DNA of 64,000 nucleotides from a virus. The position numbers were made by a program, and so were the translations under genes. The stretch lies in IMG/VR virus record IMGVR_UViG_3300031578_000005, positions 32,001 to 96,000 of that record. One strand, written 5' to 3'. Each line of letters starts with the position of its first letter. Within the stretch, counting starts at the first letter, position 1. The notes under the pieces are model-generated. The model was not told the origin of the DNA, ran no database searches, and saw nothing but the letters and a program-made list of their open reading frames with translations. Below are positions 17,484-62,110 of the stretch, one piece after another.

Positions 17484-17527
17484 TTTGCAGTTATTGTAAC
17501 ATTTACTATCTTTGCTACGTATTTATA
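17484..17527 (+). promoter_or_regulatory. composite promoter of tRNA cluster 1
   Basis: TTTG-N19-TATCTTTG nested with TGTAAC-N17-CGTA and GTATTTATA. Confidence 0.75.
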
Positions 17528-17745
17528 AAAAGGAGTATAAATTCCATCCATTGTTTTTACGTGAATGGAATGTAAGCGGCAAATGCTAATCCTGATTGAG
17601 AATATACTAAAGTAAGGAATAATCATATTGTCGGGTTCAGGGATTGAATCCTACATTAAGCAAAAACGGGATGAGGCGTTGCCATTAGGTGAGTCTATGA
17701 CCCCCGAAGCCCAACCCGTCAGTTTTGCTGTGGGTGGTAGTTCAC
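17527..17745 (+). mobile_element. IS200/IS605-derived MITE (omega-RNA-like right end)
   Basis: ends GAAGCCCAACCC...GGGTGGTAGTTCAC; left part resembles 45357-45440. Confidence 0.7.
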
Positions 17746-17797
17746 AAAATGCAAGCCTATTATTTAGGCAGTTAATTAAATTGAAGAATTAGAAATT

Positions 17798-17872
17798 ATG
17801 AAAAATTTTACACATACTCAGCCCCAACCGCAACAACATCCACAAGAAGTTGAATGGGGAAAATATGTTTAA
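17798..17872 (+). CDS. leader peptide 1 MKNFTHTQPQPQQHPQEVEWGKYV
   Basis: 10 of codons 6-16 are Pro/Gln/His; GAATGGGG pairs with terminator 5' arm. Confidence 0.85.
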   Translation: MKNFTHTQPQPQQHPQEVEWGKYV

Positions 17873-17901
17873 AAATTTTAAGAATATTTTAAAATGAACA
17901 T

Positions 17902-17931
17902 AGACCCCATTCGAAAGAGTGGGGTTTTTTT
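17902..17931 (+). terminator. attenuator terminator 1
   Basis: ACCCCATTC-GAAA-GAGTGGGGT followed by T-run. Confidence 0.85.
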
Positions 17932-17984
17932 GTAACAAAAAATTTGATATTACGTATAGTTGTTCTTTGAAATATAATTTAAAA

Positions 17985-19576: not shown

Positions 19577-19666
19577 ATGAAAAATTTACTCGACATATTG
19601 ATGGTAGTCTTAGCAGTTGACCTATTATGGGCAGATGCAGAGGATAAACTATGTTTAGTCGGGTAA
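19577..19666 (+). CDS. leader peptide 2 MKNLLDILMVVLAVDLLWADAEDKLCLVG
   Basis: 23 of 26 codons after MKN are L/V/D/A/E/W/G/M; GTCGGGT pairs with terminator 5' arm. Confidence 0.85.
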   Translation: MKNLLDILMVVLAVDLLWADAEDKLCLVG

Positions 19667-25845: not shown

Positions 25846-26499
25846 ATGGCAAGAAAGGAAAAAACATATCATTTTATTTACAAAACGACCAATCTATTGA
25901 ATGACAAATATTATTATGGAATGCATTCCACTTATGATTTGAATGATGGATATTTAGGTAGTGGTAAAAGGTTGAGATATTCAATAAATAAACACGGAAA
26001 AGAAAATCATGTTAGAGAAATTATTGAATTTTTACCAAATTATAATGAATTGATTAAAAGAGAAGAAGAAATTGTAAATTTAAATGAAATTGCAAAAGAA
26101 AATTGTTTAAATTTAAGAGTTGGAGGTTCTGGTGGTTTGAATGGATTATCTAAGGAATCGTTAATGAAGATTAGAATTGCATCGTCTAATTATATGAAAA
26201 GTTTGTGGAAAAATGGTGGTGAAGAATATCGAAATAAATTCAGTAAAATTAACACAATAAATCTAACAAATGCACATAAAAACAATAAAATAAAATATGA
26301 TAATTTTAAAAACAGAAAACATCGAAATGAAACGATTGAATTAATGAAAAAAAAGAAAATTGGTTTTGGACGTGGAAGCGATAATTCTCAATATAATACC
26401 TGTTGGGTTACAAGAAACGGAATAAATAAAAAAATAAAAAAAGAGAAACTGTCCGAATTCATTAAATTGGGATGGATTAATGGAAGAAAATTTAAATAA
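25846..26499 (+). CDS. GIY-YIG (Seg-like) homing endonuclease with NUMOD3
   Basis: FIYKTTNLLNDKYYYG.HST...YLGSG. Confidence 0.85.
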   Translation: MARKEKTYHFIYKTTNLLNDKYYYGMHSTYDLNDGYLGSGKRLRYSINKHGKENHVREIIEFLPNYNELIKREEEIVNLNEIAKENCLNLRVGGSGGLNGLSKESLMKIRIASSNYMKSLWKNGGEEYRNKFSKINTINLTNAHKNNKIKYDNFKNRKHRNETIELMKKKKIGFGRGSDNSQYNTCWVTRNGINKKIKKEKLSEFIKLGWINGRKFK

Positions 26500-26960: not shown

Positions 26961-27065
26961 AACAAATATATTTTAAATATAAATACTATTAATTCAATTA
27001 AAATTAATATATTTGTTTTCTGTAACAAATATAAAAACTTTACGTATATAATTTAAACATTAAAA

Positions 27066-28163
27066 ATGAAATTACTTGAAAAAATTAATTGGGAAGTCCT
27101 AGATACATATATTGAAAATGGATTGATTATGTCCAATAAGCATCCTGAATACGATATTTGGATTTTAAATTACACACCAAAAACACAATCAAAAAAGTTA
27201 TGGGATGTATATACTATATCATGTCGTGGATTAATTATCGATGTTGATGGTAATATTTTAGCCCGACCTTTTCAAAAATTTAAAAACTTTGAGGAACATG
27301 ATTCTTCAGAAATTGATATGTCATTACCTTTTGAAATATTTGAAAAGCGTGATGGATCATTAATTATATTATTTTACTACGAACTCAGAATGGAATGGAT
27401 TGTTGCATCAAGAGGTTCATTTGCTTCAGAACAATCAATTGAAGCTAAAAAAATATTAGAGTCAAAAGAAAATGCTTTTAAATTCTTAGACATAAAAAAT
27501 ACGTATTTATATGAAGTTCATTATGGCGAAAATAGAATTGTGGTAGATTATGGTGACTTAAGAGACGTGGTGTTATTAACTGTTATTAATTCAAAAACCG
27601 GCTATGAATTATCTTATGATGCAATGAATGAACAATATTCAAATTATTTTGCAATTGTCAAAAGGTTTGATATAAATATTAATTCACTGGATGATTTAAA
27701 AAAACTTGAAGAAGAAAATAAAGAAGGTTTTGTTGTTAAATTTTCGAACAATTTTAGAGTTAAAGTAAAATTTAGTGAATACATTAGATTGCATGGAATA
27801 TTAACAAATGTTTCAAACATAATTGTCTGGGAACATTTGAAGAATAACTATGATTTCGACACATTATTAGACAGAGTTCCTGACGAATTTTATTCATGGC
27901 TTAACAAAACCATTGATAAATTAAAAGGTAATTTCAATGAAATTGAAAGATTATCATTAAAAGAATTTATTAGAATTTACTATATTAATGAGATATCTAC
28001 TCGCAGAGAATTTGCAATGGAAGCAAAGAAGTGTAAATATCGATCGATCTTATTTAAATTGTATGATAAAAATCAATACGATGAAATTATCTGGAAAATG
28101 ATTAGACCAGTTTATAGTAAGCCGTTTTCTCGTCATTTTGAAAATAGTTTGGAAATTAATTAG
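27066..28163 (+). CDS. RNA ligase (T4 Rnl1-like)
   Basis: CRGL, RPFQKF, EKRDGS (KxDG), EGFVV, RVKVK motifs. Confidence 0.88.
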   Translation: MKLLEKINWEVLDTYIENGLIMSNKHPEYDIWILNYTPKTQSKKLWDVYTISCRGLIIDVDGNILARPFQKFKNFEEHDSSEIDMSLPFEIFEKRDGSLIILFYYELRMEWIVASRGSFASEQSIEAKKILESKENAFKFLDIKNTYLYEVHYGENRIVVDYGDLRDVVLLTVINSKTGYELSYDAMNEQYSNYFAIVKRFDININSLDDLKKLEEENKEGFVVKFSNNFRVKVKFSEYIRLHGILTNVSNIIVWEHLKNNYDFDTLLDRVPDEFYSWLNKTIDKLKGNFNEIERLSLKEFIRIYYINEISTRREFAMEAKKCKYRSILFKLYDKNQYDEIIWKMIRPVYSKPFSRHFENSLEIN

Positions 28164-28204: not shown

Positions 28205-28999
28205 ATGGCATATGTATATAAACATCTCAGAAAAGATAATAATGATGTATTCTATATTGGCATTGGATTATCTAAAAATTTTAAACGAGCATATTCTAAA
28301 TGTAATAGAAATAACTATTGGAAAAATATTGTGAATAAAGTAGATTATATTATTGAAATTATTCATACAAATATTACATGGGAAGAAGCATGTAATATTG
28401 AAATAAAATTAATAAAAGAATATGGTCGAAAAGATTTGAATGAGGGTGAATTGGTTAATATGACTAACGGTGGAGATGGTATTGTTGGGTTAATTCAGAC
28501 TGATGAACATAGAAGAAAAAATAGTGAAGCAAATAAAGGAAGACCTAAAAGTACCAAACATATTGAAAAATTCAAAAATAGAATTCAGTCTGATGAAACC
28601 AAACGAAAAATTAGTTTAAAGAATAAAGGAAGAATTTGTACTGATGAAACCAAACGAAAAATTAGTGATAAATTAAAAAATAAGATGATTGGTGATAAAA
28701 ATCCGTTCTTTGGTAAAGAACATACTAATAAAGCTAAAGAACAAATAAGTAATTCCTTGAAAGGACGCAAATTGTCCGAAACAACAAAAAATAAAATATC
28801 TGAATCAAATAAAGGAAAAACTCGCATAATTTCCGAAAAATCAAAAATTAAAATGAGTATTTCTGCAAAACATAGAAACATTAGACCACCATCAAGAAAA
28901 GGAACGTGTTGGGTAACAAAAAATGGTGTAACTAAATCAATTAAAATTAATGATTTAGATTTTTACATTTTTGATGGTTGGGTAAGAGGACGTAAGTAA
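28205..28999 (+). CDS. GIY-YIG-like homing endonuclease with NUMOD3 repeats
   Basis: YVYKH...FYIGIG...LVNMTNGGDG; repeated ETKRKIS. Confidence 0.85.
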   Translation: MAYVYKHLRKDNNDVFYIGIGLSKNFKRAYSKCNRNNYWKNIVNKVDYIIEIIHTNITWEEACNIEIKLIKEYGRKDLNEGELVNMTNGGDGIVGLIQTDEHRRKNSEANKGRPKSTKHIEKFKNRIQSDETKRKISLKNKGRICTDETKRKISDKLKNKMIGDKNPFFGKEHTNKAKEQISNSLKGRKLSETTKNKISESNKGKTRIISEKSKIKMSISAKHRNIRPPSRKGTCWVTKNGVTKSIKINDLDFYIFDGWVRGRK

Positions 29000-29292: not shown

Positions 29293-29685
29293 ATGAGTAA
29301 AGAAATTAGACAAATGATTGATAAAGTTAAGAACTTTAAGCAATTTGTGAATGAACAAAGAGTTCCATATAACGAATTACAAAATATGGTTAAAGATTTC
29401 TTGAATAAAGAAATTCAATTTACAATGGATGATATTCAAAAATATGTTGTTGGTAACATTGAAAGTATTGATTATCACACAAATGGTAGAGGGTTTGAAG
29501 TTAGTGTTGGTAATTATAAAAGTGGTGACGGTGTTAAAGATGGTAGGGGGTCATTATCAATATTTCCAGATGAAAATAAAATTATCTTTTCACATAATGA
29601 TTTTAAACCACACCCAGTTAGTGGTTTGAATGAATTTACGAATAATTTTTTTCAATTTATTAGTAAAATAGATTTCAAAAAATAG
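29293..29685 (+). CDS. cassette-like ORF with MSKEIRQMIDKVKNF leader
   Basis: 130 aa; lies between attC-like sites. Confidence 0.75.
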   Translation: MSKEIRQMIDKVKNFKQFVNEQRVPYNELQNMVKDFLNKEIQFTMDDIQKYVVGNIESIDYHTNGRGFEVSVGNYKSGDGVKDGRGSLSIFPDENKIIFSHNDFKPHPVSGLNEFTNNFFQFISKIDFKK

Positions 29686-29865: not shown

Positions 29866-29976
29866 ACCAGTACGGTAAAATTACCACAAATGTTAGATTG
29901 AAACACCGAACAAAAACTTTTAAAAATGTGTGACGGTAATATAATTACACTACTATTTATATTAAAATATTATTAT

Positions 29977-30299
29977 ATGGAAAATGAAATGAGAAAACTG
30001 ATTGACCAAGTTAAGAATTTTGGTAAATCATTAAACGAAAATGTTGGTAATACAACATACGCAATATATTTAGGAACTGATATTATTTATAATCATTTAT
30101 CTAATGAAAGATTAAAATCAGTACTCTATTCATTGGTGAAGATTTAGGTGAAGATTTAGGTGATTACATTATTGTTCAAAACGGAACAAACCACACCAAA
30201 CCAGCAGATGAATTAGGATGGGATTTGTCAAACGTAAAACCTTTTGATAACATTAATTCACTACGTACCAAAATAGATAATATTGCCAACAGAATTTAA
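29977..30299 (+). pseudogene. second cassette ORF (MENEMRKLIDQVKNF), frameshifted
   Basis: stop at 30147 within GGTGAAGATTTA duplication; another frame runs on to TAA ~30299. Confidence 0.55.
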
Positions 30300-30503
30300 T
30301 TTTTTATTGTGGATTGGAGATTTTTAAAAGTTTTTGTAACAAAATGCTAATTAGAACGTATAATGTAGTATTGGTTATAACTATTATATATAAAACATAA
30401 CACTTAACTAATTGATTGTAAACATTAAAAACAAGTCAACTTTAGGAAAGTATAAAAAATTTTTTAAAGTTAAACGTAGTATTTAAAAATAATTTAAAAT
30501 TTT

Positions 30504-30545
30504 TGTAACATTTATTAGTTTATTACGTATTTATGATTAACTTTG
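30504..30545 (+). promoter_or_regulatory. composite promoter of tRNA cluster 3
   Basis: TGTAAC-N16-CGTATTTAT followed by TAACTTTG. Confidence 0.7.
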
Positions 30546-30565
30546 TAGAATTAAAATTTGAAATA

Positions 30566-30667
30566 ATGAAAAAAGGTAACACATATTATAAAAAGTATTA
30601 TTATAAACATTATGTTTGTAAGACTGGCAATACTGTGTTGTTATCTGAAAAGGAAACTGATAATTAA
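30566..30667 (+). CDS. leader peptide 3 MKKGNTYYKKYYYKHYVCKTGNTVLLSEKETDN
   Basis: 9 of codons 7-16 are Lys/Tyr; TAAGACTGG pairs with CCGGTCTTA. Confidence 0.85.
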   Translation: MKKGNTYYKKYYYKHYVCKTGNTVLLSEKETDN

Positions 30668-30684
30668 AGATAAACGATACTAAC

Positions 30685-30723
30685 AAAAAACCCGGTCTTA
30701 ATTTAATAAGACCGGGTTTTTTT
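30685..30723 (+). terminator. attenuator terminator 3
   Basis: AAAAAACCCGGTCTTA...TAAGACCGGGTTTTTTT. Confidence 0.88.
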
Positions 30724-30743
30724 ATGCTTATTTTCATTGTAAT

Positions 30744-30824
30744 TGGGTGGTAGGTAAGTGGTTAAAACGGATTGACTGTAAATCAATTGCTTCGGCTTCG
30801 GGGGTTCGAATCCCTCCCGCCCAA
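30744..30824 (+). tRNA. tRNA-Tyr(GTA)
   Basis: ATTGA-ctGTAaa-TCAAT; variable arm; GGTTCGAATCC. Confidence 0.88.
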
Positions 30825-30831
30825 CAATAAT

Positions 30832-30915
30832 GCATCCATGCCAGAGAGGTTATGGACTGGACTTTTAATCCAGACTCCGAACGGAGTAACGTAGATTCGA
30901 GTTCTACTGGATGCA
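30832..30915 (+). tRNA. tRNA-Lys(TTT) with long variable arm
   Basis: CTGGA-ctTTTaa-TCCAG; ACTCCG/CGGAGT extra stem. Confidence 0.7.
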
Positions 30916-30968
30916 CAGTGGGGACTGTTTATAATTTTCATAGTACATGAAAGCGTAGAAAATTAAAT

Positions 30969-31042
30969 GACTCCATAGCTCAATTGGTAGATGTAACTGG
31001 CCTTTAACCAGTGGGTTCTGGGTTCGAGTCCCAGTGGGGTCA
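30969..31042 (+). tRNA. tRNA-Lys(TTT)
   Basis: ACTGG-ccTTTaa-CCAGT; GGTTCGAGTCC. Confidence 0.85.
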
Positions 31043-31126
31043 CTAACTAAACTTTAATGAACTGAAGTTTTGTCAACCACCAATCATGATTAGGTTCATA
31101 GGCGGGGAAGATTTATAAGTTCAAAC

Positions 31127-31194
31127 GCCAACGATTCAGGGTATGGACGGCTCTGTAAAAGCCCAGCCTGAAGGTTCGAGTCCTTCCGGTGGCA
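31127..31194 (+). tRNA. non-canonical tRNA-Tyr(GTA) lacking a normal D arm
   Basis: GGCT-ctGTAaa-AGCC; GAAGG-TTCGAGT-CCTTC. Confidence 0.6.
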
Positions 31195-31325
31195 CAATGT
31201 TTAATTAAGTAGCTATCAATTTATTATGATAACTACTTAATTAAAATATTTAAATTACTTGCATTTTTATTTAAGATTAATTATCTTTGTTGAAAATAAC
31301 TTTATTTTAATGCTTATGTATAAAA

Positions 31326-32050: not shown

Positions 32051-33133
32051 TTGAAAAAATTAACGATTAAAGAAATGCAAGAAATTGCAAAAAAAAGGAA
32101 TGGAAAATGTTTAAGTAATGAATATATTAATATTGACACAAAATTAAGATGGAAATGCGATAAGGGACATGAATGGGAAACTATACCATATTTAATAAAA
32201 AAAGGATGTTGGTGTCCAGAATGTGCTAATAGAAAAAAACATACAATTGAAAAAATGCAAGAAATTGCAAAAAAACGAGATGGAGAATGCATAAGCAATG
32301 AATACATTAATCTGAATCTAAAATTAGAATGGAAATGTAATAAGGGTCATAAATGGAAAGCATCACCAATTAAAATAATTAAGGGTACTTGGTGTCCAGT
32401 ATGTAGTAGAGAACCTACATACACCATTAACGACATGAAAAAAATAGCTATTAATAGAAATGGAAAATGTTTAAGTAATGAATATGTAAATTCATCATCG
32501 AAATTAGAATGGGAATGTGAACATGGGCATAAATGGAAAGCATCTCCAAATCAAATTAAATCAAATAAAACTTGGTGTCCAATATGTTTTAAGAATAAAA
32601 CTATGAAAACTATTGAAGACGCTCACAATCTTGCAAAATTAAGAGAAGGTGAATGCTTAAGCAATAAATATATTAATGTTTTTCATAATCTAAAATGGAA
32701 ATGTAATAAAGGGCATGAGTGGAAGGCTGCATTTCATAATGTTGAGTCAGGTAATTGGTGTCCTATATGCAGAGAGTCTCGTGGCGAAAATAAAATTGCA
32801 ACATTTTTAAGAAAAAATAATATTCAATTTGAAAGACAAAAAACATTTGAAGAATGTAAAAACATTAGAAAATTACCATTTGATTTTTATTTGCCGAAAT
32901 ATAATATTTTGATTGAATTCGATGGTGAACAGCATTTTAATCCCAATTGTTATCATAATAAAAAATATGAGTTTTCGAAAATTAAAAATAATGACAATAC
33001 TAAAACTAATTTTTGTACTAGGAATAATATAATTTTAATTAGAATAAAATATGATGAAAAAAATATAGATAATTTTTTGTCAGAAAAATTTATTACTAAT
33101 TTTATTGATGATGACGATAAAAATCAAAAATAA
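32051..33133 (+). CDS. Zn-ribbon repeat endonuclease (Vsr/DUF559-like C-terminus)
   Basis: four WKCxxGHxW...WCPxC repeats; PFDFYLP...IEFDGEQH. Confidence 0.8.
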   Translation: MKKLTIKEMQEIAKKRNGKCLSNEYINIDTKLRWKCDKGHEWETIPYLIKKGCWCPECANRKKHTIEKMQEIAKKRDGECISNEYINLNLKLEWKCNKGHKWKASPIKIIKGTWCPVCSREPTYTINDMKKIAINRNGKCLSNEYVNSSSKLEWECEHGHKWKASPNQIKSNKTWCPICFKNKTMKTIEDAHNLAKLREGECLSNKYINVFHNLKWKCNKGHEWKAAFHNVESGNWCPICRESRGENKIATFLRKNNIQFERQKTFEECKNIRKLPFDFYLPKYNILIEFDGEQHFNPNCYHNKKYEFSKIKNNDNTKTNFCTRNNIILIRIKYDEKNIDNFLSEKFITNFIDDDDKNQK

Positions 33134-37354: not shown

Positions 37355-39619
37355 ATGCTAATGAAAAAACATGTAAAATTTGATGAGAATTTTAATCTCA
37401 TTGCTCAGGAAATTAACAGTAAGACAACTATTGAAGTAGTTAAGAGTGTGAACCACATCATCATTATTGATGTTAGTGGGTCGATGTCATGGGATTTACC
37501 TGAAATTAGAAAAAATCTAAAAAACAAAATTTCTAATTTAATTAAAGGTGAAGATGACACAATTTCAATTATTTGGTTTTCGGGTAGAAATGATGCTGGT
37601 ATTTTAAAAGAAGAGATTCATGTGAACTCACTTAAACAGCTTAACGACTTAAATGATGCGATTGATAAATATTTAAAACCAGTTGGTTTAACTGCATTTA
37701 CTAAACCATTAGAACTTGCTAATGATATTATTGAACGTATTAGTAAAAATAATCAAGATGGATTGTTTTCGTTAATTTTTATGACTGATGGTTATTCTAA
37801 TAACGACATTTCATGGAATAACGTTAGAAACGCAGTAAAAGAAATATCACCTAAACTATCATCATCATTAGTTGTAGAATATGGGCATTATTGCGATACA
37901 AGAAAACTCATTGAAATTAGTGAACTTTTAGGGGGGGAGAAAATTGATTGCACTGGGTTTGAGGAATATGACATAGTAATTGCTAAGGGATTCACAAAAA
38001 AATTAAGTGGTGGTAAAAAGGTTGTTGTTGAAATAACCGATAAGCATCTATTTGATTTTGCATTTTCAATTGATAATGATGGTAGTGTTTTGGTATATAA
38101 TATCACAGACAATAAGATTATGGTTGGTGATAATGTTAATGAAATACATTTTTTCAGTGATAATGCTATTGGTGATGAAAATAATCATCAACACACAGCT
38201 TTATATGCAGCAATTTACTTACTTTCCGAACGATTCATGTCTGATGAAGCTGAAAAGGTATTTTACTCATTAGGTGATAATCATTATTATAAAATGTTAT
38301 CCAATGCATTTGGAAAACAAAAGCTCAATGAATTTAAAACAGCAATTAAAGAATGTGTTGCTGATGTATCAAAAAGATTTCCAGATGGTATTGCTAAAAT
38401 TCAACCAGTTAGTGATAATGCTTATTGTTTAATGAATCTTATTGAAGATTTGGGTAATATCGACAATTGTTTATTTTATCCTAATCATCCTGATTTTACT
38501 TATAATCGAATTGGTAGGAAAAAAATTGCTGTTGGCTCAACACTAACGGATGCAGATAAACAAAGACTTAATGAAGCCAAAAATATTGATGAGGCTTCGA
38601 CCATACTTAAAGAACTCGAAGAAAAGAAAGTCGATATTAAATTCATTAACTCCAATCCAGATAGAGGTTATTCATTAACTGATTTGGTTTGGAACGATTC
38701 TCGTTCCAATCTAAGTGTTCGAATTTATATTGAAGGTGAAGCAATTTTACCAAAAAATAATTTCAATATTGAAAAGGTTGCTTCATTCAAATATAATACA
38801 TTTACTTTAATTAAAGATGGTATCGTAAATGTTGAAAAACTACCAGTAAATTATTCATTGGAATTAATTTCTTTATTAAAGGCAAATGGTGTTAAATATG
38901 AGATTTATACAGCAAAGGATAACTTTGACAATACCGTTGTTATTGATCTTTCAAGTCTGCCTATCATTAACAGAGGCATGGTAAAGTCAATTTCAGCAAA
39001 TGATTTGGCAAATAAGGAATGGAACTTAATTAAATTACAGGGGGATAAAAAGGTATATGATTATTACAAAAAATCGTTATTTCCTAAAACAAGTAAATCT
39101 TTTACTGAATTACTTGGTCAAGAAGCTGCTGATTGGTTAAAGGAAATAGGAATTACCGATTTTAATGGGTTTGCACCCAAAGTAACTTCCGCAGAAGCTA
39201 CTGATTTTTATATGTCAGTTAATCTCACAACAAAAATCAAGGGATTGTCGAGTCTACCAAAAGTAGAAGATGTTGTAGCTAAAATTAAGGACAAAAAGCC
39301 ATTAAAATTAAATGAATGGATTATGTCTGATGCAATCATTAAATATAATTCTCAATTGGAATCTGATATGTATAAATCACTTTCAGCAGAACAACAATTG
39401 GGCGTATTAAAAACATATTTGGAAACTAAATCTGCTATGCTTAATAAAAAACGAAGAAAAGTTTTGCAGGAGATTGCAGAAATTAAATTCGCTTTGATTC
39501 TCAGCAAACGAAATTTTATTGAATTTAAAACGTTTGATGAAAACACACTCAACATTAAATTAGATGATCAGGAGCTAACATTTACTTTCGAATTTAGTGA
39601 AAAAGAAGAAAAGATATAA
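37355..39619 (+). CDS. large vWA domain protein
   Basis: IIDVSGSM, FMTDG. Confidence 0.8.
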   Translation: MLMKKHVKFDENFNLIAQEINSKTTIEVVKSVNHIIIIDVSGSMSWDLPEIRKNLKNKISNLIKGEDDTISIIWFSGRNDAGILKEEIHVNSLKQLNDLNDAIDKYLKPVGLTAFTKPLELANDIIERISKNNQDGLFSLIFMTDGYSNNDISWNNVRNAVKEISPKLSSSLVVEYGHYCDTRKLIEISELLGGEKIDCTGFEEYDIVIAKGFTKKLSGGKKVVVEITDKHLFDFAFSIDNDGSVLVYNITDNKIMVGDNVNEIHFFSDNAIGDENNHQHTALYAAIYLLSERFMSDEAEKVFYSLGDNHYYKMLSNAFGKQKLNEFKTAIKECVADVSKRFPDGIAKIQPVSDNAYCLMNLIEDLGNIDNCLFYPNHPDFTYNRIGRKKIAVGSTLTDADKQRLNEAKNIDEASTILKELEEKKVDIKFINSNPDRGYSLTDLVWNDSRSNLSVRIYIEGEAILPKNNFNIEKVASFKYNTFTLIKDGIVNVEKLPVNYSLELISLLKANGVKYEIYTAKDNFDNTVVIDLSSLPIINRGMVKSISANDLANKEWNLIKLQGDKKVYDYYKKSLFPKTSKSFTELLGQEAADWLKEIGITDFNGFAPKVTSAEATDFYMSVNLTTKIKGLSSLPKVEDVVAKIKDKKPLKLNEWIMSDAIIKYNSQLESDMYKSLSAEQQLGVLKTYLETKSAMLNKKRRKVLQEIAEIKFALILSKRNFIEFKTFDENTLNIKLDDQELTFTFEFSEKEEKI

Positions 39620-40019: not shown

Positions 40020-40145
40020 ATGAAAACATTAACGATAAATATAAACATTTCTACATCGACATCAAGTCGCATTGGAGACTCTATATTCTGTTCAAATTTT
40101 AATGGCAGAATTGGAAACATTTTATCGGGTTTTAGTTTTTATTAA
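40020..40145 (+). CDS. leader peptide 4 MKTLTININISTSTSSRIGDSIFCSNFNGRIGNILSGFSFY
   Basis: 35 of 39 codons after MK are T/I/N/S/R/G/F/C; TCGGGTTTT pairs with AAAACCCGA. Confidence 0.85.
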   Translation: MKTLTININISTSTSSRIGDSIFCSNFNGRIGNILSGFSFY

Positions 40146-61417: not shown

Positions 61418-62110
61418 ATGAAAGCAAATGTAAATAACAAAAAAAATCAGAGTAGGTACAACAAGTCTGAAATTTTGAAACGGGCATGGAAAATTTTCAA
61501 GTCAGAAAACAATGATAAGAACTTTGGTGATTGCTTGCGTGAAAGTTGGAGTATTGCCAAAAATGGTAATAACGTATCTACTTTTGAGGAGATATATAAA
61601 AAGTATAATAAACAACTATACTATTTTATACTGGCAATGATAAAAAACGAAGACAGTGCCAAAGAAATTCTGCAAGATGTTTTCATGAGGTTAGACCGGC
61701 ATTTTGAGGAGTATGATGTATATAAGGCAAAAATTTCGACATGGTTACATACAATAGCGAAGAATCTTGTAATTGACTATATAAGAAAAGAAAAACAAAC
61801 CCGTAACACCGTTAATGTGAGTGATTACGTAGATAGTGAAGGCAACGAATTTTTTATTGTTCCTGATAGCAGTAAAAGTTCGGGTTTAGTTGAGAATAAA
61901 GAGATCAGCGTAAAAATCGAATTAGCATTTGCAAATTTAAGTCCTAAACTCAAAAAAATCGCTGAATTGTATTTTATTGAGGAAAAACAATATCTGGAAA
62001 TTTCAGATATTTTAAATATGCCAATGGGATCGGTAAAAGGTTATATTAATCGCATACGCTTGCAATTACAAACTGAATTAAAACAAGTCTACCAAACCAT
62101 TGATCAATAG
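61418..62110 (+). CDS. ECF-type RNA polymerase sigma factor with N-terminal extension
   Basis: region 2 AKEILQDVF...STWLHTIAKNLVIDYIRK; region 4 YLEISDILNMPMGSVKGYINR. Confidence 0.9.
   Translation: MKANVNNKKNQSRYNKSEILKRAWKIFKSENNDKNFGDCLRESWSIAKNGNNVSTFEEIYKKYNKQLYYFILAMIKNEDSAKEILQDVFMRLDRHFEEYDVYKAKISTWLHTIAKNLVIDYIRKEKQTRNTVNVSDYVDSEGNEFFIVPDSSKSSGLVENKEISVKIELAFANLSPKLKKIAELYFIEEKQYLEISDILNMPMGSVKGYINRIRLQLQTELKQVYQTIDQ

What the first reader, a model, noticed from the sequence alone, without database searches (positions are those of the whole stretch)
30566..31194. Attenuator 3: Lys/Tyr leader before tRNA-Tyr x2 and tRNA-Lys x2
The run YYKKYYYKHY is followed by TAAGACTGG (30619-30627), complementary to CCGGTCTTA in the terminator. 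Only Tyr and Lys tRNAs follow. Established: tRNA-Lys(UUU) is the PrrC target and tRNA-Tyr is a colicin E5 target. A dedicated Lys/Tyr sensor fits an anti-defence role (inference).
Basis: partly seen in the sequence, partly recalled or inferred. Interest (0 to 1): 0.9.

Follow-up and report, generated by a model that had tools for sequence, protein, structure and literature searches.

The report
Leader-peptide switch gating phage tRNA-Tyr/Lys genes
A giant uncultured phage puts a tiny test gene rich in tyrosine and lysine codons, wired to a switchable transcription stop, in front of its tyrosine and lysine tRNA genes, so it probably makes these tRNAs mainly when ribosomes read those codons slowly.

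Summary
A phage promoter motif (30505-30530) precedes a 33-codon ORF (30566-30667). Codons 7-16 read YYKKYYYKHY, the only one of 133,402 stop-free 10-residue windows in the 128.5 kb record with 9 or more Lys/Tyr.

TAAGACTGG (30619-30627) pairs with the terminator's 5' arm (30692-30700). The terminator (30685-30722, about -22 kcal/mol) ends 20 nt before tRNA-Tyr(GTA). Then come tRNA-Lys(UUU), tRNA-Lys(UUU) and a weak fourth tRNA-Tyr(GTA).

Across 41 related loci I found 28 distinct Lys/Tyr-rich leaders, each ahead of Lys/Tyr tRNAs. The antiterminator strand keeps its place but sits in all three reading phases, and in the window both helix strands are exchanged together.

It is one of four units in this window whose leaders mirror their downstream tRNAs. 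My reading is a trp-style leader-peptide attenuator acting on tRNA genes (about 0.85). Six paper searches found no account of this.

The anti-defence idea is untested. A T4 Rnl1-type RNA ligase lies upstream throughout the clade, which fits it. All tRNA blocks carry such sensors, which weakens a special role.

This scan already noted the same design on this genome and on other phage DNA.

The parts
30505..30530 (+). Phage promoter motif (GTAACA, 14 nt, ACGTAT; ECF-sigma-like), 36 nt before the leader ATG
   Evidence: The motif occurs 8 times in the window against 0.19 expected, and 0 of 100 shuffles reached 8. In the record it occurs 28 times forward and 1 reverse, against 1 and 0 for the control pattern. 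The same motif precedes the leaders at 19577 and 40020. It is the best-conserved block in the alignment with relatives. The record encodes a sigma factor with r2 and r4_2 domains.
30566..30667 (+). Leader ORF, 33 codons plus TAA. An in-frame upstream ATG at 30533 lies inside the promoter motif.
   Evidence: It has no Shine-Dalgarno sequence, like the phage's other genes: 86 ORFs show no G peak and an A-rich stretch at -13 to -9. The ORF is kept open at 19-33 codons in 28 distinct homologous leaders.
30584..30613 (+). Regulatory run YYKKYYYKHY: six TAT, two AAA, one AAG and one CAT
   Evidence: It is the only one of 133,402 stop-free 10-residue windows in the record with 9 or more K/Y. K/Y make up 11 of 16 residues before the antiterminator strand and 2 of 16 after it.
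30601..30621 (+). 9-bp hairpin inside the Tyr/Lys codons that takes in the first 3 nt of the antiterminator strand. It is a candidate pause or anti-antiterminator element.
   Evidence: It appears in the minimum-energy and centroid folds. A hairpin at the equivalent place in relatives has one compensatory pair. Its role is inferred.
30619..30627 (+). Antiterminator 5' strand TAAGACTGG
   Evidence: It pairs with 30692-30700 in the fold of the transcript that lacks the terminator's 3' arm (-18.8 kcal/mol, z -2.8). It sits at leader nt 54-62. The homologous strand starts at nt 53-59 in 11 of 11 units but in phases 1, 2 and 3.
30635..30680 (+). Inner helix of the antiterminator (30635-30646 with 30668-30680), spanning the leader stop codon
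   Evidence: A ribosome placed at the stop codon removes this helix, and the terminator arm then has 0 upstream pairs.
30685..30724 (+). Intrinsic terminator: 16-bp stem, 6-nt loop and a T tract
   Evidence: -22.4 to -22.6 kcal/mol. It ends 20 nt before the first tRNA, which leaves no room for the roughly 26-nt promoter motif.
30744..30825 (+). tRNA-Tyr(GTA), class II with a long variable arm
   Evidence: (52.6 bits)
30832..30916 (+). tRNA-Lys(TTT), 85 nt, with an unusual 5-bp variable-arm hairpin
   Evidence: (56.8 bits)
30969..31043 (+). tRNA-Lys(TTT), ordinary class I
   Evidence: (53.9 bits)
31127..31195 (+). Weak fourth tRNA, Tyr(GTA): 69 nt, short D arm, short variable loop
   Evidence: 29.7 bits against a cut-off of 29. 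ARAGORN calls it only at a relaxed threshold.
31196..31250 (+). A+T-rich 22-bp hairpin that closes the unit. It may be the 3' end or a processing site.
   Evidence: -17.1 kcal/mol, z -5.3, and 0 of 200 shuffles fold as well. Its function is inferred.
27066..28163 (+). Context, not part of the switch: a T4 Rnl1-type RNA ligase gene with its own promoter motif at 27022-27047
   Evidence: Pfam RNA_lig_T4_1 at 59.9 bits against a cut-off of 28.3. T4 RNA ligase 1 structures 2C5U and 5TT6 match at E 1e-14. It lies upstream of the Lys/Tyr unit in relatives.

Best explanation
This is a self-contained phage tRNA operon (tRNA-Tyr, tRNA-Lys, tRNA-Lys and a weak fourth tRNA-Tyr) under a leader-peptide transcription attenuator.

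How it would work:
- Transcription starts at a phage-type promoter, probably read by the phage's own ECF-like sigma (inferred).
- A ribosome begins the 33-codon leader.
- If charged tRNA-Tyr or tRNA-Lys is scarce, the ribosome lingers on codons 7-15. The strand at 30619-30627 stays free and pairs with the terminator's 5' arm as that arm emerges. No terminator forms, and RNA polymerase runs on into the tRNA genes 20 nt downstream.
- If these tRNAs are plentiful, the ribosome runs over the antiterminator strand and on to the stop codon. It then covers the strand or sits inside the would-be antiterminator loop. The local 16-bp terminator hairpin folds and transcription stops.

The result is negative feedback that matches the supply of these two tRNAs to decoding demand.

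Shown here: the parts, their alternative pairings, their conservation and their co-variation. Inferred: that the leader is translated, that stalling occurs, the timing relative to the polymerase, and the direction of regulation.
For: Layout:
- Promoter motif, ORF, terminator and tRNAs lie in one line.
- The gap from the end of the terminator stem to the first tRNA is about 27 nt in the window, that is 20 nt after the T tract.
- In 17 of the 28 correctly parsed loci that gap is 8-25 nt. In those loci the tRNAs can only be transcribed through the terminator.

Codon signal:
- The run is the most K/Y-rich 10-residue window of 133,402 in the record.
- 13 of 32 leader residues are K/Y against a background of 0.148, binomial P 3.5e-4.

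Alternative pairing:
- The antiterminator forms in the pre-terminator transcript.
- With a ribosome mask, the terminator arm has 7-9 upstream pairs when the A site is on codons 1-15, and 0-3 pairs on codons 17-26. It has 0 at the stop codon.
- Four relatives gave the same pattern. In L015 the arm stayed paired at every ribosome position.

Conservation:
- 41 loci, duplicates included, give 28 distinct leaders of 19-33 aa. Their best 10-residue windows hold 6-9 K/Y, and each lies ahead of Lys/Tyr tRNAs.
- K/Y codons vary synonymously (AAA 43, AAG 15, TAT 40, TAC 5 in 11 leaders).

RNA-level constraint:
- The antiterminator strand starts at leader nt 53-59 in 11 of 11 units, but in phase 3 (window), phase 1 (L012) or phase 2 (the other 9).

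Co-variation:
- The window has TAAGACTGG with CCGGTCTTA where relatives have GAATCGGG with CCCGATTC.
- The window's Pro/Gln/His unit has GAATGGGG with CCCCATTC, a compensated pair.

Structure model:
- A covariance model built only from 10 relatives' leaders, with the antiterminator as structure, gives as its two best hits in the 64 kb window the Pro/Gln/His unit (33.2 bits, E 2.7e-4) and this unit at exactly 30566-30701 (19.0 bits, E 0.19).
- A sequence-only model from the same alignment finds neither.

Family pattern:
- All four leaders of the window are enriched in the amino acids of their own downstream tRNAs (P 1.8e-6, 1.3e-6, 3.5e-4 and 1.3e-7).
- The true pairing of leaders to tRNA sets scores best of 24 permutations.
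- Relatives G001-G003 repeat the four-unit layout.
Against: - There are no expression data. No RNA run holds the stretch.
- The static folding model is not clean. With the ribosome on codons 27-33 of the window, 7-8 upstream pairs of the terminator arm come back.
- In L009, L010 and L012 they come back at the stop codon too. In L015 the arm kept 6-8 upstream pairs at every ribosome position.
- Termination in the unstalled case therefore needs a steric or kinetic argument that I could not compute.
- At equilibrium the full transcript always folds the terminator, so the switch must be kinetic.
- A true anti-antiterminator is not conserved. In relatives the hairpin abuts the antiterminator strand but does not overlap it.
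- Helix co-variation rests on few independent events: the window's swap, the paralogue's compensated pair, and a shifted 7-bp pairing in L061/L062 that I read only by eye.
- L040 has a Lys/Tyr leader and a terminator, but I found no convincing antiterminator.
- Lys is the commonest amino acid of this A+T-rich phage (9.8%), so some K/Y richness is expected.
- The model hit on this unit is marginal (E 0.19).
Confidence: 0.85

Rival explanations
1. The unit is an anti-defence sensor. It exists chiefly to detect loss of tRNA-Lys or tRNA-Tyr to host anticodon nucleases and to release replacement tRNAs. The mechanism is the same as in the best explanation; only the purpose differs.
For: - Phage-supplied tRNA-Tyr counters retron-Eco7 PtuAB, and tRNA-Lys counters PrrC170 (PMC11555353, abstract).
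- PARIS AriB is described as a tRNA nuclease countered by viral tRNAs (listing and the start of the abstracts only).
- A T4 Rnl1-type ligase sits upstream of the unit in the window. From recall, this is the enzyme class that repairs PrrC-cut tRNA-Lys in T4.
- That ligase also lies upstream in 29 of 30 relatives that have 1.5 kb or more of downstream flank.
- Each amino acid is represented by one ordinary and one structurally odd tRNA.
- The Lys/Tyr-only grouping is kept throughout the clade.
Against: - The same switch guards all other tRNA blocks, so nothing marks Lys/Tyr as special.
- His, Asn and Asp, the other colicin E5 targets (recalled), lie behind three different leaders.
- No polynucleotide kinase-phosphatase domain was found in the 128.5 kb fragment. 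PF08645 and PF13671 each gave 0 of 1, though the record is only 39% complete.
- All relatives are one syntenic clade (ligase 59-70% identical), so adjacency is not independent evidence.
- The one distant ligase locus (L069, 37% identical) has no such unit.
- Earlier notes of this scan report Lys and Tyr grouped with other amino acids in other phages (not checked by me).
Confidence: 0.2
2. It is a small protein gene with its own terminator. The ORF encodes a functional Lys/Tyr-rich peptide, the terminator merely ends that gene, and the tRNAs are made by leak-through or from another promoter.
For: The ORF is conserved, and part of the peptide (the stretch like YY.GKKSYKK) is similar across relatives.
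Against: - The conserved residues after the run follow from a fixed RNA strand that is read in different phases.
- There is no room for a promoter before the tRNAs.
- The terminator arm has a conserved partner inside the ORF.
- Three other leaders of quite different composition share the layout, and each matches its own tRNAs.
Confidence: 0.04
3. The RNA senses tRNA directly, like a T-box. The leader RNA would bind uncharged tRNA itself, without translation.
For: The logic is the same (tRNA status controls a terminator), and an antiterminator-terminator pair is present.
Against: - No T-box family appears among the 41 Rfam matches listed at E up to 10 for 30400-31300.
- No specifier-like stem was seen.
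- The unit instead carries an ATG-started ORF whose Tyr/Lys codons vary synonymously.
Confidence: 0.02
4. It is a chance product of base composition. In a 29% G+C genome AAA and TAT runs arise freely, and the complement to the terminator is accidental.
For: K is the top amino acid and Y is at 5%. The complement test on the window alone is only 11 of 2000.
Against: - The run is unique among 133,402 windows, and it lies directly before the record's only Lys/Tyr tRNAs.
- It is conserved in 28 distinct leaders.
- The leader-to-tRNA match holds four times over.
Confidence: 0.02

Closest known systems
Leader-peptide transcription attenuators of amino-acid operons (trpL, hisL, pheL, thrL, leuL, ilv leaders; recalled knowledge)
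   Same: A short ORF with clustered codons for the sensed amino acid, an intrinsic terminator, and an antiterminator that uses the terminator's 5' arm. Ribosome position decides between the two folds.
   Different: - The controlled genes are tRNAs, not biosynthetic enzymes.
- The owner is a phage.
- The sensor is bivalent (Tyr and Lys).
- There is no Shine-Dalgarno sequence.
- The ORF runs 37 nt past the antiterminator strand.
- There is no sequence membership. Phe, Thr and Trp leader models score 18.8-23.1 bits against cut-offs of 41-55.
pheST (phenylalanyl-tRNA synthetase) attenuator with its Phe-rich leader (recalled)
   Same: A leader-peptide attenuator controls a component of the decoding machinery for the same amino acid it senses.
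   Different: It controls the synthetase, not the tRNA, and it is bacterial and monovalent.
T-box riboswitches (recalled)
   Same: A terminator-antiterminator choice is set by the state of a specific tRNA.
   Different: A T-box binds uncharged tRNA directly and needs no translation. No T-box match was found here.
Phage tRNA supply against tRNA-targeting defences (T5 tRNA-Tyr against retron-Eco7; tRNA-Lys against PrrC170; PMC11555353, abstract read)
   Same: Phage-encoded tRNA-Tyr and tRNA-Lys are the species concerned.
   Different: By that paper's section heading, supply there comes from a strong promoter. Here supply would be gated by a decoding sensor. No defence system or resistance feature was tested here.
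The other three attenuators of this phage and the Lys/Tyr units of its relatives
   Same: They share the promoter motif, the ORF length, the antiterminator placement and the terminator type. The model built from relatives hits the window's Pro/Gln/His unit at 33.2 bits.
   Different: The leaders are written in other amino acids. The window's Lys/Tyr unit has a different helix sequence from all relatives.

Membership tests
Leader-peptide transcription attenuator (mechanistic class) | Short ORF upstream with clustered codons for the sensed amino acid(s) | tested here: met
   33 codons, with 9 of 10 consecutive codons Tyr or Lys. This is unique among 133,402 windows.
Leader-peptide transcription attenuator (mechanistic class) | Intrinsic terminator between the leader and the controlled genes | tested here: met
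   16-bp stem plus a T tract, about -22 kcal/mol, ending 20 nt before the first tRNA.
Leader-peptide transcription attenuator (mechanistic class) | Antiterminator pairing that excludes the terminator and is exposed or hidden by ribosome position | tested here: met
   One search gives the fold, another the ribosome masks and the shuffles. The structure model finds the unit and the sequence model does not. The helix is swapped on both strands relative to relatives.
Leader-peptide transcription attenuator (mechanistic class) | Anti-antiterminator or pause hairpin (segments 1:2) | tested here: inconclusive
   The window has a 9-bp hairpin overlapping 3 nt of the antiterminator strand. In relatives the hairpin only abuts the strand.
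Leader-peptide transcription attenuator (mechanistic class) | Sensed codons correspond to the function of the controlled genes | tested here: met
   Only Tyr and Lys tRNAs follow. The same holds in relatives and for the other three leaders.
Leader-peptide transcription attenuator (mechanistic class) | Read-through depends on translation of the leader and on charged tRNA | not testable with these tools
   No RNA data. This needs reporter or coupled in vitro assays.
Rfam leader families (Trp_leader, Thr_leader, Phe_leader) | Score at or above the family's gathering threshold | tested here: not met
   18.8, 21.7 and 23.1 bits against cut-offs of 41, 55 and 55.
T-box riboswitch | Match to the T-box model | tested here: not met
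   Absent from the 41 matches at E up to 10 for 30400-31300.
Anti-defence tRNA supply | The phage encodes the tRNA species that known nucleases target | tested here: met
   tRNA-Lys(UUU) and tRNA-Tyr(GUA) are present. The targets are named in the PMC11555353 abstract.
Anti-defence tRNA supply | The phage tRNAs resist the nuclease, or supply rises on attack | not testable with these tools
   The host and its defences are unknown. Only unusual tRNA architectures were noted.

The most novel reading that the evidence does not exclude
The Lys/Tyr unit and the neighbouring T4 Rnl1-type ligase form a sense-and-restore module against anticodon nucleases. The leader would detect in real time that Lys or Tyr codons can no longer be decoded. 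It would then open transcription of replacement tRNAs. These include structurally atypical copies (a tRNA-Lys with a long variable arm and a minimal tRNA-Tyr) that might escape the nuclease, while the ligase mends cut tRNAs. More broadly, the phage would run a four-channel closed-loop controller of its whole tRNA supply.
Probability: 0.17. Interest if true: 0.95.

Novelty: new variant of a known kind. Interest (0 to 1): 0.85.

Why it matters
Leader-peptide attenuation is a textbook mechanism, but as far as I know only for amino-acid supply and a few synthetase genes. Here the same device appears to regulate tRNA genes themselves, in a virus, with the sensor written in the codons those tRNAs read.

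- It would be a direct feedback loop on decoding capacity.
- It would help explain how giant phages with 30 or more tRNAs avoid wasteful or harmful over-expression.
- It gives a compact, portable sensor of the availability of a chosen tRNA.
- It makes the debated purpose of phage tRNAs testable with one reporter: codon-usage matching, replacement of degraded host tRNAs, or escape from tRNA-cutting defences.

Six full-text searches found no description of it.

Tried and rejected
- Near-identical DNA in the phage collection: no match.
- Sequencing runs: no RNA holder listed; only soil-metagenome DNA contigs hold the stretch. No reads were laid.
- Rfam leader, sRNA and T-box families: nothing above threshold in 30400-31300 apart from the tRNAs.
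- Static ribosome-mask folding as a full test of the switch: it supports the stalled state but not, on its own, the unstalled state.
- Equilibrium folding of the whole leader always gives the terminator, so it cannot decide the question.
- Polynucleotide kinase-phosphatase as a partner for the ligase: PF08645 and PF13671 were not found in the 39%-complete record.
- Neighbouring small ORFs 29293-29685 and 29926-30147: no Pfam or PHROG family.
- Loci not assessable for lack of upstream sequence: L023, L024, L028, L030, L034 and L035.
- L011 has no tRNA in its flanks.
- Loci with no Lys/Tyr tRNA found: L050, L060, L065 and L068. Their contigs end 13 to 1950 nt after the ligase.
- In one search my script chose a wrong terminator for L052. 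I read that unit by eye. My later attempt to translate it by coordinate was off by one, so it is not in the 28 distinct peptides.
- I did not build a column-by-column pair count. MAFFT did not keep the window's swapped helix in register, so I used the covariance-model test instead.
- The supplements of the papers could not be seen, and none was needed for a claim made here.
Full report
WHAT IS THERE. The window is bases 32001-96000 of a 128,513-bp virus record. The record is estimated to be 39% complete and has 29% G+C. Related contigs reach 320-360 kb, so this is a giant phage. The window carries 31 tRNA genes and a tmRNA gene by ARAGORN, all on the + strand. Rfam adds a few more tRNAs.

At the finding I read the following, in order:
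- a promoter motif GTAACA-N14-ACGTAT at 30505-30530;
- an ORF from ATG 30566 to TAA 30665-30667;
- an intrinsic terminator at 30685-30722, followed by T's;
- twenty bases later, tRNA-Tyr(GTA) at 30744-30825;
- tRNA-Lys(TTT) at 30832-30916;
- tRNA-Lys(TTT) at 30969-31043;
- a weak tRNA at 31127-31194;
- a 22-bp A+T-rich hairpin at 31196-31250 that closes the unit.

The weak tRNA scores 29.7 bits against a cut-off of 29. ARAGORN calls it Tyr(GTA) only at a relaxed threshold. The next gene, a vWA-domain protein, has its own upstream region.

Codons 7-16 read YYKKYYYKHY (30584-30613). TAAGACTGG at 30619-30627 pairs over nine contiguous positions, one of them G-U, with CCGGTCTTA at 30692-30700, the terminator's 5' arm.
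- Among 133,402 stop-free ten-residue windows in all six frames of the whole record, this is the only one with nine or more Lys/Tyr.
- The record's only Lys and Tyr tRNAs are those directly behind it.
- A complement of that length to the arm arose in 11 of 2000 shuffles of the upstream 121 nt.

THE PROMOTER. The motif occurs 8 times in the window against 0.19 expected. In the record it occurs 28 times forward and once in reverse, against 1 and 0 for a control pattern. From recall it resembles ECF-sigma promoters. The record encodes a 243-residue open frame with Sigma70 r2 and r4_2 domains. That this sigma reads this promoter is my inference.

The phage's genes lack a Shine-Dalgarno signal. Upstream of 86 ORFs there is no G peak, and positions -13 to -9 are 52-71% A. 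The leader also lacks one, so it looks like an ordinary start for this phage. This pattern is typical of Bacteroidota (recalled), which is my guess at the host.

THE ALTERNATIVE FOLDS.
- The terminator alone folds at -22.4 to -22.6 kcal/mol.
- The transcript that lacks the terminator's 3' arm folds into the antiterminator, -18.8 kcal/mol, z -2.8. In it, 30619-30627 pairs with 30692-30700 around an inner helix, 30635-30646 with 30668-30680.
- A 9-bp hairpin at 30601-30621 lies within the Tyr/Lys codons and takes in the first three bases of the antiterminator strand.

I then masked a ribosome footprint at each A-site codon and refolded the pre-terminator transcript.
- On codons 1-15 the terminator's 5' arm keeps 7-9 upstream pairs.
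- On codon 16 it keeps 4.
- On codons 17-26 it keeps 0-3.
- On codons 27-33 it regains 7-8.
- At the stop codon it has 0.

Four relatives show the same loss once the ribosome passes the Lys/Tyr run. Three of them, L009, L010 and L012, regain the pairing at the stop codon. In L015 the arm kept 6-8 upstream pairs at every ribosome position. The stalled state is therefore well explained. The unstalled state needs a further argument: a ribosome inside the 52-64-nt antiterminator loop hinders its closure while the local terminator hairpin folds first. That argument is an inference. At equilibrium the full transcript always forms the terminator, so control must be kinetic, as it is in known attenuators (recalled).

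RELATIVES. Three routes gave related DNA:
- the vWA protein, in viral contigs and metagenome contigs;
- the promoter pattern;
- the upstream RNA ligase.

Eleven distinct Lys/Tyr units were analysed in detail: the window, L009, L010 (L027 is identical to it), L012, L015, L025, L026, L029, L031, L032 and L033. In all eleven:
- an ATG-started ORF of 28-33 codons holds a core of 6-9 Lys/Tyr in 8-11 residues;
- few Lys/Tyr follow the antiterminator strand (0-2 of 9-16);
- the antiterminator strand starts at leader nt 53-59;
- a stop codon lies 18-37 nt after that strand;
- a terminator follows.

The ligase route gave 34 loci.
- 29 have Lys/Tyr tRNAs with a terminator within 400 nt upstream.
- 4 have contigs that end 13-1950 nt after the ligase and show no Lys/Tyr tRNA.
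- 1, the only distant one (37% identity), has a tRNA-Tyr but no such unit.

Of the 29:
- the script found an 8-nt complement between leader and terminator arm in 19;
- it found a 6-nt one in 6, a limit of how I delimited the arms;
- for L052 it chose the wrong terminator, and by eye L052 is a standard unit;
- L061 and L062 have, by eye, a shifted 7-bp pairing that uses two loop bases;
- in L040 I found no convincing antiterminator.

Over all routes, 41 loci (several from the same contigs) give 28 distinct leader peptides. In those units ARAGORN lists only Lys(ttt or ctt) and Tyr(gta) behind the terminator. The one exception is a doubtful Leu(cag) call in L063, in the gap where other relatives carry an odd tRNA-like element. 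The gap from the end of the terminator stem to the first tRNA is 8-25 nt in 17 of the 28 correctly parsed loci. In those loci the tRNAs must be transcribed through the terminator.

RNA CONSTRAINT AND CODON CONSTRAINT. The antiterminator strand is conserved as nucleotides but is read in different phases: phase 2 in nine of the eleven units, phase 1 in L012 and phase 3 in the window. The conserved residues after the run are therefore a by-product of the RNA.

The Lys/Tyr run behaves like codons. It shows synonymous variation (AAA 43, AAG 15, TAT 40, TAC 5 across 11 leaders) and in-frame three-base indels.

The window's helix differs on both strands from every relative: TAAGACTGG with CCGGTCTTA, against GAATCGGG with CCCGATTC. 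The window's Pro/Gln/His unit has GAATGGGG with CCCCATTC, a compensated base pair.

A covariance model built only from ten relatives' leaders, with the RNAalifold antiterminator as its structure, was run over the 64 kb window. Its two best hits were the Pro/Gln/His unit (17798-17916, 33.2 bits, E 2.7e-4) and this unit at exactly 30566-30701 (19.0 bits, E 0.19). A sequence-only model from the same alignment found neither; its single hit was 3.7 bits elsewhere. The hit on this unit is marginal by E-value, but it begins at the leader ATG and ends one base past the antiterminator's 3' strand.

ONE OF FOUR. Three other places in the window have the same layout.
- The leader at 17798, rich in Pro/Gln/His, precedes Pro, Pro, His, Gln, Gln, Gln. 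A second promoter motif follows its terminator.
- The leader at 19577, rich in Leu/Val/Asp/Ala/Glu/Trp, precedes Asp, Glu, Glu, Val, Leu, Ala, Leu, Leu, Trp, the tmRNA and Met.
- The leader at 40020, rich in Thr/Ile/Asn/Ser/Arg/Gly/Phe/Cys, precedes Cys, Asn, Ile, Ser, Phe, Gly, Ile, Gln, Thr, Arg x3 and Ser.

The share of each leader made of its own set's amino acids, against the share of those amino acids in 58 long ORFs, is as follows:

| Leader | Own-set residues | Background | P |
|---|---|---|---|
| 17798 | 10 of 23 | 0.072 | 1.8e-6 |
| 19577 | 22 of 28 | 0.334 | 1.3e-6 |
| 30566 | 13 of 32 | 0.148 | 3.5e-4 |
| 40020 | 35 of 40 | 0.473 | 1.3e-7 |

The true pairing of leaders to tRNA sets scores best of all 24 permutations. 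Relatives G001, G002 and G003 repeat the layout.

THE ANTI-DEFENCE IDEA. I could not test it.

In its favour:
- The abstract of PMC11555353 reports that retron-Eco7 PtuAB degrades tRNA-Tyr and that a T5 tRNA-Tyr protects against it. It also reports that a supplied tRNA-Lys counters PrrC170.
- Listings and the start of abstracts describe PARIS AriB as a tRNA nuclease countered by viral tRNAs.
Pfam gives 59.9 bits against a cut-off of 28.3. T4 RNA ligase 1 structures match at E 1e-14, with the lysine-aspartate-glycine motif aligned.
- From recall, this is the enzyme class that, together with polynucleotide kinase, repairs PrrC-cut tRNA-Lys in T4.
- This ligase gene lies 0.1-4 kb upstream of the Lys/Tyr leader on the same strand wherever the flank is long enough.
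- Each of the two amino acids has one ordinary and one odd tRNA: a tRNA-Lys with a 5-bp variable-arm hairpin, and a 69-nt tRNA-Tyr without the long arm usual in bacteria.

Against a dedicated role:
- Every tRNA block has such a sensor.
- The other colicin E5 targets (recalled) lie behind the other three leaders.
- No kinase-phosphatase domain was found in the partial record.
- The relatives form one syntenic clade, so adjacency says little.
- Lys is simply the most used amino acid of this phage (9.8%), so plain demand is a sufficient reason.

I put the defence reading, as the main purpose, at about 0.2. It does not change the mechanism.

COMPARISON WITH WHAT IS KNOWN. The unit works like the trp, his, phe, thr and ilv leader attenuators and like the pheST leader (recalled). 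It is not a member of any Rfam leader family and is not a T-box. What differs is the target, which is tRNA genes, and the owner, which is a phage. Six full-text searches gave no paper describing leader-peptide control of tRNA genes. I saw only listings for most of those hits, and journals outside the library are not covered.

Earlier notes of this scan describe the other attenuators of this genome and similar units on other phage DNA. These include a unit whose leader matches the one I found in L025. I used those notes as leads only. The four-unit pattern, the promoter motif and the sigma gene I checked myself. The claims about other genomes I did not check.

VERDICT. The attenuator reading is supported at about 0.85. 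The anti-defence purpose remains open. This is a new variant of a known kind of control, of high interest.

Noticed in passing
window 30832-30916 and 31127-31195: The unit holds one ordinary and one odd tRNA for each amino acid. One is a tRNA-Lys(UUU) with a 5-bp variable-arm hairpin, an architecture usual for Leu, Ser and Tyr. The other is a 69-nt tRNA-Tyr(GUA) with a short D arm and no long variable arm. Several other tRNAs of the window are also over-long: Pro 90 nt, Gln 84 nt, Cys 90 nt, Thr 86 nt.
   Followed up: partly
window 27066-28163: A T4 Rnl1-type RNA ligase gene with its own promoter motif at 27022-27047. It lies upstream of the Lys/Tyr unit throughout the clade. No kinase-phosphatase partner was found in the partial record.
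   Followed up: yes
window about 61590-62070 (G000:C1:93592-94068): A 243-residue open frame with Sigma70 r2 and r4_2 domains. It is a likely phage ECF-type sigma factor that could read the GTAACA-N14/15-ACGTAT promoters, which occur 28 times forward in the record.
   Followed up: partly
L009 2355-2441; L026 623-707; L031 2590-2673; L033 1865-1950: A conserved tRNA-like element lies between the attenuator and the first tRNA-Lys in four relatives. Its D and T arms are normal, but its anticodon loop is about 13 nt. ARAGORN calls it Ala or Ser only by assuming a 5-7-nt intron. It is absent from the window.
   Followed up: partly
window 17932-17957: In the Pro/Gln/His unit a second copy of the promoter motif lies after the terminator and 28 nt before tRNA-Pro. 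That operon may therefore have an attenuator-independent input.
   Followed up: no
window 17523-17797: A comparatively G+C-rich stretch of about 275 nt lies between a promoter motif (17496-17522) and the Pro/Gln/His leader. It may be a structured RNA.
   Followed up: no
window 30336-30504: Another promoter motif at 30336-30361 is followed by about 140 nt with no convincing ORF before the Lys/Tyr promoter. It may be a small RNA or a tandem promoter.
   Followed up: no
window 30533: An ATG inside the conserved end of the promoter motif is in frame with the leader in the window, L012 and L015, but not in L009 or L010. If the transcript starts there, it could be a leaderless start. The Lys/Tyr run is read in the same frame either way.
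   Followed up: no
reverse-complemented join of L020 and L021 (G003:C1:49000-88468), positions 37955-38029; G000:C1:113888-113962: ARAGORN calls a tRNA with anticodon CTA (an amber-reading type) in relative G003. It also calls a tRNA-Phe with the unusual anticodon AAA in the window's own record, outside the window.
   Followed up: no
window 25846-26499, 28205-28999, 32051-33133: Homing-endonuclease-like genes (NUMOD3, HNH, treble-clef zinc fingers) are scattered among the tRNA units. They account for the variable spacing between the ligase and the Lys/Tyr unit in relatives.
   Followed up: partly
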